Sequence record: PQ819472.1
Direction: 5' to 3' (one strand)
DNA from: Staphylococcus phage sv_nwjns2
Length of the DNA: 64,000 nucleotides
A program made the translations under genes and the position numbers. The notes beneath the pieces are model-generated. The model had not been told where the DNA came from, searched no databases, and was given only the letters and a program-made list of their open reading frames with translations. Below, piece after piece: positions 22,640 through 25,286 of this stretch. Position 1 is the stretch's first letter, and each line of letters begins with the position of its first letter.

Positions 22640-23503
22640 ATGGTTAACTCAATGTTTGGAGGGGACTTAGACCCTTATGAAAAATCATTAAACTATGAAT
22701 ATCCTTATCATCCTAGTGGTAATCCTAAACATATAGACGTAAGTGAGATAGATAATTTAACATTAGCTGATTATGGATGGTCACCGGATGCAGTTAAAGC
22801 ATATATGTTCGGTATTGTAGTTCAAAATCCTGATACAGGACAGCCTATGGGTGATGAGTTTTATAACCATATATTAGAAAGAGCGGTAGGTAAAGCTGAA
22901 AGAGCATTAGATATATCTATACTACCTGACACTCAACATGAGATGAGAGATTATCATGAGACAGAGTTTAATAGTTATATGTTTGTACATGCTTACAGAA
23001 AACCTATATTACAGGTAGAGAACTTACAGCTACAGTTTAATGGTAGACCGATATATAAATACCCTGCTAACTGGTGGAAAGTAGAGCATCTAGCAGGACA
23101 TGTTCAATTATTCCCTACAGCACTTATGCAAACAGGACAATCAATGTCATATGATGCGGTATTTAATGGATACCCTCAATTAGCAGGTGTATACCCGCCA
23201 TCAGGGGCAACATTTGCACCTCAAATGATACGATTAGAATATGTATCAGGTATGCTTCCACGTAAAAAAGCAGGAAGAAATAAACCTTGGGAAATGCCTC
23301 CTGAGTTAGAACAGTTAGTTATAAAATATGCATTGAAAGAAATATACCAAGTATGGGGTAACTTAATCATTGGTGCCGGTATTGCTAATAAAACATTAGA
23401 AGTAGACGGTATTACAGAGACAATAGGTACCACTCAATCAGCTATGTATGGTGGAGCTAATAGGATTATAAGGAGGGTTAGAAAATGGAAAAACCGTATA
23501 TGA
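22640..23503 (+). CDS. head-completion/neck-region protein A, copy with frameshifted C-terminus
   Basis: 287 aa; identical to second copy until ...MYGGA, then 77-bp deletion shifts frame (NRIIRRVRKWKNRI*) across the next gene's RBS. Confidence 0.5.
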   Translation: MVNSMFGGDLDPYEKSLNYEYPYHPSGNPKHIDVSEIDNLTLADYGWSPDAVKAYMFGIVVQNPDTGQPMGDEFYNHILERAVGKAERALDISILPDTQHEMRDYHETEFNSYMFVHAYRKPILQVENLQLQFNGRPIYKYPANWWKVEHLAGHVQLFPTALMQTGQSMSYDAVFNGYPQLAGVYPPSGATFAPQMIRLEYVSGMLPRKKAGRNKPWEMPPELEQLVIKYALKEIYQVWGNLIIGAGIANKTLEVDGITETIGTTQSAMYGGANRIIRRVRKWKNRI

Positions 23504-23886
23504 TAGGAGCCAACTCTAACCCTAATGTTATTAATAAGTCAACAACATATACTACTACAACACAAGTAGATGAACAAGATAAACCTAAGTATACTACTAG
23601 ACTAGAGTTTGATACGATTGACATGATTAGGTTTATTAATGACCGAGGTATAAAAGTATTATGGGAAGAAGCATATTTCTGTCCTTGCCTTAATCCTGAT
23701 ACAGGACATCCTAGAGTCGATTGCCCTAGATGTCATGGTAAAGGGATTGCATATCTACCTCCTAAAGAGACTATAATGGCAATACAGTCTCAAGAGAAAG
23801 GAACTAACCAGTTAGATATAGGTATACTAGATACAGGAACTGCAATAGGTACCACTCAATTAGAAAAGAGGATTTCCTATAGTTAA
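23485..23886 (+). pseudogene. truncated 5' copy of gene B (first 131 codons) ending at duplication junction
   Basis: MEKPYMIGANSN...LEKRISY identical to 24408.. gene, then 2 codons + stop at junction. Confidence 0.6.
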
Positions 23887-23971
23887 TGGTAGACCGATAT
23901 ATAAATACCCTGCTAACTGGTGGAAAGTAGAGCATCTAGCAGGACATGTTCAATTATTCCCTACAGCACTT

Positions 23972-24394
23972 ATGCAAACAGGACAATCAATGTCATATGA
24001 TGCGGTATTTAATGGATACCCTCAATTAGCAGGTGTATACCCGCCATCAGGGGCAACATTTGCACCTCAAATGATACGATTAGAATATGTATCAGGTATG
24101 CTTCCACGTAAAAAAGCAGGAAGAAATAAACCTTGGGAAATGCCTCCTGAGTTAGAACAGTTAGTTATAAAATATGCATTGAAAGAAATATACCAAGTAT
24201 GGGGTAACTTAATCATTGGTGCCGGTATTGCTAATAAAACATTAGAAGTAGACGGTATTACAGAGACAATAGGTACCACTCAATCAGCTATGTATGGTGG
24301 AGCTAGTGCACAGATACTTCAAATAAATGAAGATATAAAAGAACTATTAGATGGTTTAAGAGCTTACTTTGGATATAATATGATAGGATTATAA
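23972..24394 (+). pseudogene. 3' fragment copy of gene A (frame open from 23864, native C-terminus retained, no RBS)
   Basis: MQTGQSMSYDAVFNG... identical to internal part of 22640 gene; ends ...SAQILQINEDIKELLDGLRAYFGYNMIGL*. Confidence 0.5.
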
Positions 24395-24407
24395 GGAGGG
24401 TTAGAAA

Positions 24408-25286
24408 ATGGAAAAACCGTATATGATAGGAGCCAACTCTAACCCTAATGTTATTAATAAGTCAACAACATATACTACTACAACACAAGTAGATGAACAA
24501 GATAAACCTAAGTATACTACTAGACTAGAGTTTGATACGATTGACATGATTAGGTTTATTAATGACCGAGGTATAAAAGTATTATGGGAAGAAGCATATT
24601 TCTGTCCTTGCCTTAATCCTGATACAGGACATCCTAGAGTCGATTGCCCTAGATGTCATGGTAAAGGGATTGCATATCTACCTCCTAAAGAGACTATAAT
24701 GGCAATACAGTCTCAAGAGAAAGGAACTAACCAGTTAGATATAGGTATACTAGATACAGGAACTGCAATAGGTACCACTCAATTAGAAAAGAGGATTTCC
24801 TATAGAGACAGGTTTACTGTTCCTGAGGTATTGATGCCTCAACAAATGATTTATTTTGTGAATAAAGATAGAATTAGAAAAGGTATACCTCTATACTACG
24901 ATGTAAAAGAAGTAACTTATATAGCCACTCAAGATGGTACAGTCTATGAAGAAGATTATGAAATTAAGAATAATAGATTGTATTTAAATGAAAAATATGA
25001 GAATCATACAGTAACTTTAAAGATACTTATGACTTTAAGATATGTAGTATCAGATATACTAAAAGAAAGTCGTTACCAATATACTAAGTTTAATCAACCT
25101 AAATCAAAATTTGAAAACTTACCTCAAAAATTACTTCTTAAAAGGGAAGATGTTATTGTACTACAAGACCCTTATAAAGTTAATGATGGTATAGAAGAAG
25201 ACCTAGAAATTCAAGTAGATGACCCTAAGGCTTCGGCATCTAACCCTAGTAATTTAGGTGGATTCTTCGGAGGTGCATTTAAATAA
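24408..25286 (+). CDS. head-completion/neck-region protein B (intact copy, CxC...CPRC zinc motif)
   Basis: 292 aa with AAGGAGG RBS; FCPCLNPDTGHPRVDCPRCHGKG. Confidence 0.55.
   Translation: MEKPYMIGANSNPNVINKSTTYTTTTQVDEQDKPKYTTRLEFDTIDMIRFINDRGIKVLWEEAYFCPCLNPDTGHPRVDCPRCHGKGIAYLPPKETIMAIQSQEKGTNQLDIGILDTGTAIGTTQLEKRISYRDRFTVPEVLMPQQMIYFVNKDRIRKGIPLYYDVKEVTYIATQDGTVYEEDYEIKNNRLYLNEKYENHTVTLKILMTLRYVVSDILKESRYQYTKFNQPKSKFENLPQKLLLKREDVIVLQDPYKVNDGIEEDLEIQVDDPKASASNPSNLGGFFGGAFK

What the first reader, a model, noticed from the sequence alone, without database searches (positions are those of the whole stretch)
23037..24805. Tandem duplication of about 0.9 kb spanning two head-completion genes, with a 77-bp indel between copies
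Positions 23037-23882 and 23883-24805 are direct tandem copies. The second copy contains 77 bp (24306-24382) that the first lacks. Three consequences follow from this. (i) Gene A at 22640 is full length but frameshifted over its last ~29 codons, and its translation runs through the RBS of the next gene. (ii) A 131-codon truncated copy of gene B (23485-23886) ends exactly at the junction. (iii) An RBS-less 3' fragment of A (open from 23864) carries the native C-terminus. (iv) An intact B follows (24408-25286). No single copy of A is therefore wild type. This is either a real recent rearrangement in a virion structural region or a mis-assembly of a mixed population. Real duplications of this kind are rare in tightly packed myovirus morphogenesis modules.
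Basis: seen in the sequence. Interest (0 to 1): 0.75.

Follow-up and report, generated by a model that had tools for sequence, protein, structure and literature searches.

The report
Assembly-made repeat in phage neck genes
An exact 846-base repeat that breaks the head-to-tail adaptor gene of a Staphylococcus Kayvirus is real in the sequence, but it most likely arose when the ends of the assembled genome were joined, so it is a record error to fix and not new phage biology.

Summary
Window 23037-23882 (846 nt) and 23883-24805 (923 nt) are 100% identical tandem copies, except for 77 nt (24306-24382) missing from copy 1.

The two genes are the neck adaptor and stopper of phage 812 (PDB 8q01). 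The 77 nt encode adaptor residues 274-299, which is the whole third helix of its alpha-helical core. As written, the genome therefore has no intact adaptor.

- None of 274 related GenBank phages has a second copy.
- Neither novel junction occurs in any collection searched.
- Collapsing the repeat gives a locus 2224/2224 identical to phage Stab21.

The geometry looks algorithmic: D = 77, P = Q = 423, and P+D = D+Q = 500. A 77-nt identical overlap at contig ends is a documented SPAdes artefact in phage assemblies. A two-constant model reproduces all 64,000 bases of the window exactly. That model takes a circular contig opened at D, adds 500-nt end pads cut without the 77-nt overlap, and re-orients without removing the pads.

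I judge a finishing artefact most likely (about 0.65). If the junctions are real, the order X-P-D-Q-P-Q-Y has identical k-mers up to k = 424 and keeps both genes intact. Only reads or PCR can settle it. Interest is low.

The parts
22640..23503 (+). A': neck adaptor gene. Codons 1-273 are native. They are followed by 14 out-of-frame codons (NRIIRRVRKWKNRI) and a stop inside the stopper start region. The third core helix (residues 273-296) is missing.
   Evidence: ORF list. Wild-type A is 302 aa and 100% identical to the phage 812 adaptor, PDB 8q01_b. Domain table of PMC12886913.
23037..23459 (+). P, copy 1: 423 nt covering adaptor gene nt 398-820
   Evidence: Exact identity to 23883-24305
23459..23460 (.). 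Junction J1 (P|Q): GGAGCTA|ATAGGATT. It removes exactly 77 nt and has no microhomology.
   Evidence: Absent from viral, genome and metagenome contig collections.
23460..23882 (+). Q, copy 1: 423 nt comprising the last 3 adaptor codons and stop, the stopper RBS, and stopper nt 1-398
   Evidence: Exact identity to 24383-24805
23485..23886 (+). B': truncated stopper of 133 aa (132 native residues plus Ser) with its own strong RBS (AAGGAGG). It keeps the tetra-cysteine loop (63-90) and the gating loop (104-118). It lacks the beta-sandwich (143-208) and the last barrel strands.
23882..23883 (.). Junction J2 (Q|P): CCTATAG|TTAATGG. It has no exact microhomology, only an imperfect resemblance (CTAtAG-TT against CTAcAGtTT).
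   Evidence: Absent from viral, genome and metagenome contig collections.
23883..24305 (+). P, copy 2
23864..24394 (+). A'': 3' fragment of the adaptor gene. The frame is open from 23864 and the first start codon is the ATG at 23972 (140 aa, residues 163-302). It has no RBS and carries the native C-terminus.
24306..24382 (+). D: the 77-nt block present only in copy 2. It spans adaptor codons 274-299, which form the third helix of the alpha-helical core. In the artefact model it is the k = 77 terminal overlap of the original contig.
24383..24805 (+). Q, copy 2
24408..25286 (+). Intact stopper gene (292 aa)
   Evidence: Identical to Stab21 g100. Full-length match to phage 812 stopper gp97, differing at 3 of 292 positions, PDB 8q01_S.
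22270..22340 (+). Terminator-like hairpin (22270-22294) after the major capsid gene, then a promoter-like site (22312-22340) at the head of the neck operon. No terminator lies within the repeat, so all copies would be co-transcribed.
   Evidence: Phage 812h1 annotates a terminator and a promoter at the same place.

Best explanation
The extra 846 nt are a product of sequence handling, not of phage biology. The true genome most likely carries one adaptor gene and one stopper gene, as every relative does.

Proposed route (inferred, not shown):
1. A short-read de Bruijn assembly gave a circularly permuted contig that happened to open inside the adaptor gene.
2. Its two ends carried the usual k-mer overlap, here k = 77, which is block D.
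3. During closing, polishing or re-orientation, the last and first 500 nt of the contig, each taken without the 77-nt overlap, were attached as wrap-around pads. These pads are P and Q, each 500-77 = 423 nt.
4. The overlap was trimmed once more than it should have been at one join. This produced junction J1, a clean 77-nt deletion.
5. The pads were not removed when the sequence was cut elsewhere and the halves were swapped. This produced junction J2, the old end-to-start join.

The result is X-P-Q|P-D-Q-Y: a perfect 846/923-nt tandem repeat that takes no account of reading frames.

Shown: the repeat, its exact geometry, its absence from relatives, the loss of an essential structural element, and that the model regenerates the window base for base.

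Inferred: which software or manual steps were actually used.
For: 1. Geometry. D = 77 nt, P = Q = 423 nt, and P+D = D+Q = 500 nt exactly. The deletion is therefore exactly centred in the 923-nt unit, about a 1/847 chance if placed at random.
2. Known artefact. [quoted passage not shown]
3. Model fit. A model with only k = 77 and pad = 500 reproduces all 64,000 nt of the window.
4. Junctions. Both are blunt with zero exact microhomology. No hairpin in D could drive slippage (DNA fold z = -0.1).
5. Copies. They are 100% identical, and collapsing them gives 2224/2224 identity to Stab21.
6. Relatives. 0 of 274 related GenBank records has a second copy.
7. Collections. J1 and J2 are absent from viral, genome and metagenome contig collections. 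A' and B' are not on record among 153 billion gene positions.
8. Viability. As written, no intact adaptor exists. D encodes residues 274-299, and the adaptor's alpha-helical core includes 273-296. A plaque-forming phage should not have this genome.
Against: - I have no reads, so nothing about the pipeline is shown. I do not know that SPAdes or 500-nt padding was used, and I know of no specific tool that makes exactly this mistake.
- The model was fitted after seeing the numbers.
- J2 has an imperfect microhomology: CTAYAG followed by TT, and blastn extends across it with one gap. That is what natural illegitimate recombination can look like, with a chance of roughly 2%.
- The rest of the window is clean. 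Indels against Stab21 are intergenic homopolymers or in frame, so the assembler was not generally unreliable.
- Real tandem duplications of 1-2 kb do arise quickly in Herelleviridae phages (PMC6365445).
- One regularity is left unexplained. P starts at nt offset 397 of the adaptor gene and Q ends at nt offset 397 of the stopper gene.
Confidence: 0.65

Rival explanations
1. There is a real, very recent tandem duplication, but the contig shows the two copies in the wrong order. The true genome would be X-P-D-Q-P-Q-Y. A 923-nt duplication arose by illegitimate recombination in the replicating DNA pool. A 77-nt deletion then occurred in the redundant, non-functional second adaptor fragment, where it is harmless. 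The variant was fixed by a plaque-purification bottleneck. Adaptor and stopper are both intact, and the phage carries an 846-nt insert that expresses a truncated stopper.
For: - The written and alternative orders have identical k-mer content for every k up to 424. A short-read assembly therefore cannot tell them apart without pairs or reads spanning more than 424 nt.
- The alternative order restores the 302-aa adaptor and the 292-aa stopper.
- A 77-nt deletion that removes an adaptor core helix could reach high frequency only in a redundant copy (inference).
- A Herelleviridae phage is known to evolve tandem duplications in a structural gene.
- There is imperfect microhomology at J2.
Against: - It needs two rare events in a lineage so young that the copies have no mismatch.
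- It gives no reason for D = 77, P = Q = 423 or P+D = 500.
- No relative shows either junction.
- A co-expressed truncated stopper carrying the adaptor-facing extension, Zn loop and gating loop might poison neck assembly (inference).
Confidence: 0.13
2. The duplication is real exactly as written. The sequenced DNA was dominated by a genome with a defective adaptor. Either it was kept alive by wild-type segregants, since recombination between the two P copies regenerates the wild type, or the truncated adaptor still works.
For: - The contig says so.
- Tandem duplications segregate single-copy genomes at high rates. An EfV12-phi1 isolate was a mixture of 0 to 4 extra copies.
- The assembly is otherwise clean.
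Against: - A' lacks residues 274-302, including one of the three segments of the alpha-helical core that walls the adaptor chamber.
- The PHROG family profile runs to the C-terminus.
- A'' has no RBS and starts only at residue 163.
- A defective genome cannot be the majority after plaque purification at low multiplicity.
- The 77/500 geometry remains unexplained.
Confidence: 0.07
3. The genome is wild type, but the library also contained aberrant molecules carrying J1 and J2. These could be an 846-nt circle or (P-Q)n concatemers, chimeric library fragments, or an in-silico edited sequence. The assembler threaded them into the main contig.
For: - Wild type plus a P-Q circle gives the same graph as the window (reasoning).
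- Reads made only of 4-11 tandem copies of a duplicated segment were seen in EfV12-phi1.
Against: - It requires two unrelated novel junctions at substantial depth.
- It gives no reason for the 77/500 constants, unless the sequence was edited by software. In that case it merges with the main explanation.
Confidence: 0.08

Closest known systems
k-mer terminal overlap of circular contigs from de Bruijn assemblers (77-bp identical ends of SPAdes phage contigs; PMC9409062)
   Same: The odd block is exactly 77 nt. It sits at a join with no microhomology. The locus is otherwise identical to the nearest relative. Such overlaps are removed by hand or by scripts, which is error-prone.
   Different: The usual mistake leaves a 77-nt duplication at the contig ends. 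Here there is a 77-nt deletion next to an 846-nt redundant block in the interior of the sequence. That requires extra padding and re-orientation steps, which I infer but cannot document.
Adaptive tandem duplications in Herelleviridae phage EfV12-phi1 (1.8 kb in the tail-fibre gene; PMC6365445)
   Same: Same virus family. Head-to-tail copies of about 1-2 kb with essentially no divergence, located in a virion structural gene.
   Different: Those duplications are in frame within one gene. They recurred in four replicate lines under selection, varied in copy number, and were verified by coverage, PCR and MinION reads. Here the repeat spans two genes, is out of frame, destroys the only complete adaptor gene as written, is unique to one sequence, and is unverified.
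Classical tandem duplications of phage T4 (rII region) and lambda, and poxvirus gene 'accordions' (from my own knowledge; not checked here)
   Same: Unequal or illegitimate recombination in replicating viral DNA produces unstable direct repeats that segregate back to a single copy.
   Different: Those were selected for gene dosage, complementation or genome length. No selective rationale is visible here, and the breakpoints follow round software-like numbers.
Phage 812 neck: adaptor gp96 and stopper gp97 (PDB 8q01, 8qkh and others; PMC12886913)
   Same: The wild-type adaptor of this lineage is 100% identical to gp96. The window's stopper matches gp97 over its full length, differing at 3 of 292 positions. 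Gene order is the same: capsid, small ORF, adaptor, stopper, 206-aa ORF, tail terminator.
   Different: In the window the adaptor gene is interrupted, and an extra truncated stopper and an adaptor fragment are interposed.

Membership tests
Assembler k-mer overlap / contig-end handling artefact | The length of the anomalous block equals an assembler k value | tested here: met
   D = 77 nt. 77-bp identical ends of SPAdes phage contigs are documented. That 77 is the default largest k for 150-nt reads comes from my own knowledge.
Assembler k-mer overlap / contig-end handling artefact | All breakpoints derive from a few fixed constants and take no account of sequence homology or reading frame | tested here: met
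   The model with k = 77 and pad = 500 regenerates the window exactly. There is zero exact microhomology. The frames are broken.
Assembler k-mer overlap / contig-end handling artefact | The anomaly lies at the ends of the original contig, and no reads span the novel junctions | not testable with these tools
   No reads or assembly history are available. The window's own genome is in none of the collections.
Genuine tandem segmental duplication in a phage genome | Head-to-tail direct copies with a novel junction | tested here: met
Genuine tandem segmental duplication in a phage genome | The arrangement is compatible with a viable genome (essential genes retained) | tested here: not met
   As written there is no intact adaptor, and a core helix is deleted. 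The criterion would be met only in the alternative copy order.
Genuine tandem segmental duplication in a phage genome | Support from read depth, junction reads, PCR or long reads, or independent occurrence | not testable with these tools
   No reads are available. There is no second occurrence in 274 relatives or in any contig collection.
Phage 812-type neck adaptor (gp96) | Full-length sequence match including all three alpha-helical core segments, the beta-hairpin and the beta-sandwich | tested here: not met
   The wild-type reconstruction matches 302/302. The window's only complete ORF, A', stops being native after residue 273. Core segment 273-296 is absent.
Phage 812-type stopper (gp97) | Full-length match with the tetra-cysteine loop, gating loop, beta-barrel and beta-sandwich | tested here: met
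   24408-25286 matches 8q01_S over 1-292. The extra copy B' covers only residues 1-132.

The most novel reading that the evidence does not exclude
The junctions are real. This Kayvirus isolate carries a newborn 846-nt tandem duplication in its neck operon, with the 77-nt deletion in the redundant copy so that adaptor and stopper stay intact. The phage would then tolerate co-expression of a truncated stopper (residues 1-132, with Zn loop and gating loop) with the native one. It would be a snapshot of gene-fragment birth in a tightly packed morphogenesis module, and a natural test of whether stopper N-terminal fragments interfere with neck assembly.
Probability: 0.15. Interest if true: 0.35.

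Novelty: not a real feature. Interest (0 to 1): 0.1.

Why it matters
Kayviruses are leading candidates for therapy against Staphylococcus aureus, and their genome records serve as references for safety review, annotation and engineering. If this record is left as it is:

- it reports a frameshifted adaptor, a truncated stopper and an orphan adaptor fragment that probably do not exist;
- it inflates the genome by 846 bp;
- it could be read as evidence of rearrangement in a conserved structural module.

The useful outcome is a concrete correction, namely collapsing 23460-24305. A second outcome is a diagnostic signature for this class of error: an indel equal to the assembler's k, flanked by arms of (round number minus k). 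If reads were to prove the repeat real, it would be a modest curiosity about duplication and tolerance in phage neck genes, not a new kind of system.

Tried and rejected
- **The window's own genome or an independent copy.** No record is more than 99.3-99.9% identical over long stretches. Four exact-protein look-ups found nothing. Six scans for the two junctions across viral, genome and metagenome contigs found nothing.
- **Tandem Repeats Finder.** It reports nothing because its longest period is 500. The repeat was established with the repeat finder and a direct comparison instead.
- **Slippage across a hairpin in the 77-nt block.** Rejected: the DNA fold is no better than shuffled sequence (z = -0.1 to -0.2).
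- **Unequal crossover at the native 21-nt near-repeat** CAATAGGTACCACTCAAT[C/T]AG, which lies 18-19 nt before the end of both P and Q. Rejected because it would give a 499-nt unit with junctions inside the repeat. The proximity follows from its 499-nt spacing being close to 500.
- **Chimera with a second Kayvirus from a cocktail.** Rejected: both copies carry the same Stab21-type alleles at all 16 sites in P and Q that distinguish 812h1.
- **Campbell-type integration of an engineered donor with equal homology arms.** No vector backbone or payload is present. The deletion is not codon-aligned, so it does not look designed.
- **Restriction-site explanations for the breakpoints** (GTGCAC at the start of D, CTRYAG near J2). 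The cut positions do not give the observed joins.
- **A translational rescue.** The stopper fragment and the adaptor fragment are out of frame by one nucleotide. The TAATG stop-start overlap at 23884-23888 opens only a 14-codon ORF in the wrong frame (read).
- **Literature search** for duplications reported in Kayvirus. Nothing was found.

Full report
**1. The observation**

Window 23037-23882 (846 nt) is followed directly by 23883-24805 (923 nt). The first 423 nt and the last 423 nt of the two units are 100% identical. The only difference is a 77-nt block (24306-24382) that the first unit lacks. Identity stops abruptly at both outer ends, and neither internal junction has a single base of exact microhomology. 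It is the only large direct repeat in the 64-kb window.

I use this notation:
- P = 423 nt, adaptor gene nt 398-820.
- D = the 77-nt block.
- Q = 423 nt: the last three adaptor codons, the stop, the stopper RBS, and stopper nt 1-398.
- X and Y = the flanks.
- The window reads X-P-Q-P-D-Q-Y, and relatives read X-P-D-Q-Y.
- The two novel joins are J1 (P|Q, 23459/23460) and J2 (Q|P, 23882/23883).

**2. What the genes are**

The window is a Kayvirus (Herelleviridae, Twortvirinae). Its nearest records are Stab21 (99.9% across the locus and 25500-50000) and phiSA12 (99.3% over 1-22000).

- Wild-type gene A (302 aa) is 100% identical to the phage 812 adaptor protein.
- Gene B (292 aa) matches the second chain of the same solved neck complex, PDB 8q01, over its full length, differing at 3 positions.
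- The structural paper names them adaptor gp96, a dodecamer on the portal, and stopper gp97, a hexamer (PMC12886913).
- The gene at 25925-26761 is the tail terminator (Pfam SP10_terminator).
- A terminator-like hairpin and a promoter-like site precede the operon, and no terminator lies inside the repeat.

**3. Consequences as written**

- A' (22640-23503) has 273 native residues and then 14 frameshifted ones.
- Table S3 of the 812 paper lists the adaptor's alpha-helical core as residues 49-91, 219-241 and 273-296. Block D encodes residues 274-299, so A' lacks one of the three core segments that wall the channel chamber. The break comes directly after the DNA-contacting loop 265-272.
- B' (23485-23886, 133 aa) keeps the tetra-cysteine and gating loops but lacks the beta-sandwich and the last barrel strands.
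- The adaptor 3' fragment has no RBS, and its first start codon corresponds to residue 163.
- Only the second stopper copy is intact.

A phage with exactly this genome has no normal adaptor. By inference from the structure, it should not form plaques.

**4. Relatives and collections**

- All 274 related GenBank records match the 3101-nt query over 2255 nt (3101-846), with one place per record. None has a second copy.
- Collapsing the repeat gives a locus identical to Stab21 at 2224 of 2224 positions. Both copies share the same lineage-specific alleles, so this is not a chimera with another phage.
- J1 and J2 are absent from IMG/VR, from GTDB species representative genomes, and from JGI metagenome contigs.
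- A' and B' are not on record among the called genes of public assemblies.
- The window's own genome is also absent from these collections, so no independent copy could be compared.
- Elsewhere the window differs from Stab21 only by substitutions, intergenic homopolymer lengths and one in-frame 12-nt repeat change. The assembly is otherwise sound.

**5. The geometry**

D is 77 nt, P and Q are both 423 nt, and P+D and D+Q are both exactly 500 nt. The deletion is therefore exactly centred in the unit. All four breakpoints follow from one position and two constants, 77 and 500.

I wrote the simplest handling model that uses these constants:
1. A circular contig opens at D with a 77-nt terminal overlap.
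2. The overlap is trimmed once.
3. The last and first 500 nt, each taken without the overlap, are added as wrap-around pads.
4. The sequence is cut elsewhere and the halves are swapped without removing the pads.

This regenerates all 64,000 nt of the window. The model was built after seeing the numbers, and I cannot name a tool that does precisely this. Even so, no natural mechanism I considered predicts a 77-nt blunt deletion centred between two 423-nt arms. The mechanisms I considered were unequal crossover, copy choice, circle excision with reintegration, and hairpin slippage (z = -0.1).

**6. What speaks for biology**

- Real tandem duplications arise quickly in this virus family. EfV12-phi1 evolved 1.8-kb in-frame duplications in its tail-fibre gene within days, with mixed copy numbers even in one isolate (PMC6365445).
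- J2 has an imperfect resemblance (CTAYAG followed by TT) that blastn bridges with one gap.
- If the junctions are real, the written order need not be. X-P-D-Q-P-Q-Y has exactly the same k-mers for every k up to 424 and restores both a 302-aa adaptor and a 292-aa stopper. A deletion that removes an adaptor core helix could persist only in the redundant copy. A real duplication would therefore most plausibly have that alternative order.

**7. Verdict**

| Explanation | Probability |
|---|---|
| Finishing artefact | about 0.65 |
| Real duplication with the copies mis-ordered | about 0.13 |
| Real as written | about 0.07 |
| Other aberrant or edited molecules | about 0.08 |
| Unassigned | remainder |

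One regularity stays unexplained under every model. P begins at nt offset 397 of the adaptor gene and Q ends at nt offset 397 of the stopper gene.

Read mapping or a single PCR across 22950-24900 (1105 bp against 1951 bp) would settle the matter. Either way the finding is of low scientific interest. Its practical value is a correction to a therapeutic-phage genome record and a recognisable signature for this type of error.

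Noticed in passing
window 22640-23503 / 24408-25286; relatives: The neck adaptor is named 'tail fiber protein' in PHROGs (phrog_772) and in several RefSeq Kayvirus records. The stopper is named 'capsid protein' or 'virion structural protein', and even 'Capsid protein' in the PDB entry. 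The solved phage 812 neck shows they are adaptor and stopper, so these names are misannotations that have spread.
   Followed up: partly
adaptor residues 269-302 (window 24291-24394): A separate 34-residue PHROG family (phrog_38131) matches only the adaptor C-terminus (E = 2.7e-21). This suggests that some deposited phage genomes annotate this tail as its own small ORF, perhaps from frameshifted or split adaptor genes elsewhere.
   Followed up: no
window 23421-23441 and 23843-23863 (also 24267-24287 and 24766-24786): A native 21-nt near-repeat, CAATAGGTACCACTCAAT[C/T]AG, occurs once in the adaptor 3' end and once in the stopper gene, 499 nt apart in the single-copy locus. It encodes IGTTQ in both proteins. 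It lies 18-19 nt before the end of P and of Q, which I take as a consequence of 499 being close to 500.
   Followed up: partly
window 8994-9074 and 9184-9264: An 81-nt direct repeat (95% identical, 190 nt apart) lies in the long non-coding stretch between the tRNA cluster and the next genes. A TA-dinucleotide length difference from Stab21 lies inside the second copy, at 9255.
   Followed up: no
window 7290-7521: ARAGORN places tRNA-Trp, tRNA-Phe and tRNA-Asp on the minus strand. The Stab21 record annotates the same three tRNAs on the plus strand. One of the two strand assignments is wrong, and it is probably the one in the record.
   Followed up: no
window 1-22000 versus 22300-50000: Mosaic relatedness. 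The left part is closest to phiSA12 (99.3%) and only 99.0% to Stab21. The structural region from the neck genes onward is 99.9-100% identical to Stab21. This is consistent with recent recombination among Kayviruses.
   Followed up: partly
window 16021-16032: A 12-nt in-frame insertion (TCCTGAACCTGA, a Pro-Glu repeat unit) relative to Stab21 lies in the 383-aa-plus ORF at 15128-16279. This is repeat-number variation in a low-complexity segment.
   Followed up: no
window 23037 and 23882: P starts at nucleotide offset 397 of the adaptor gene and Q ends at nucleotide offset 397 of the stopper gene. J2 is therefore one base away from an in-frame stopper(1-132)::adaptor(134-302) fusion. No model I tried explains this, and it is possibly coincidence.
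   Followed up: partly
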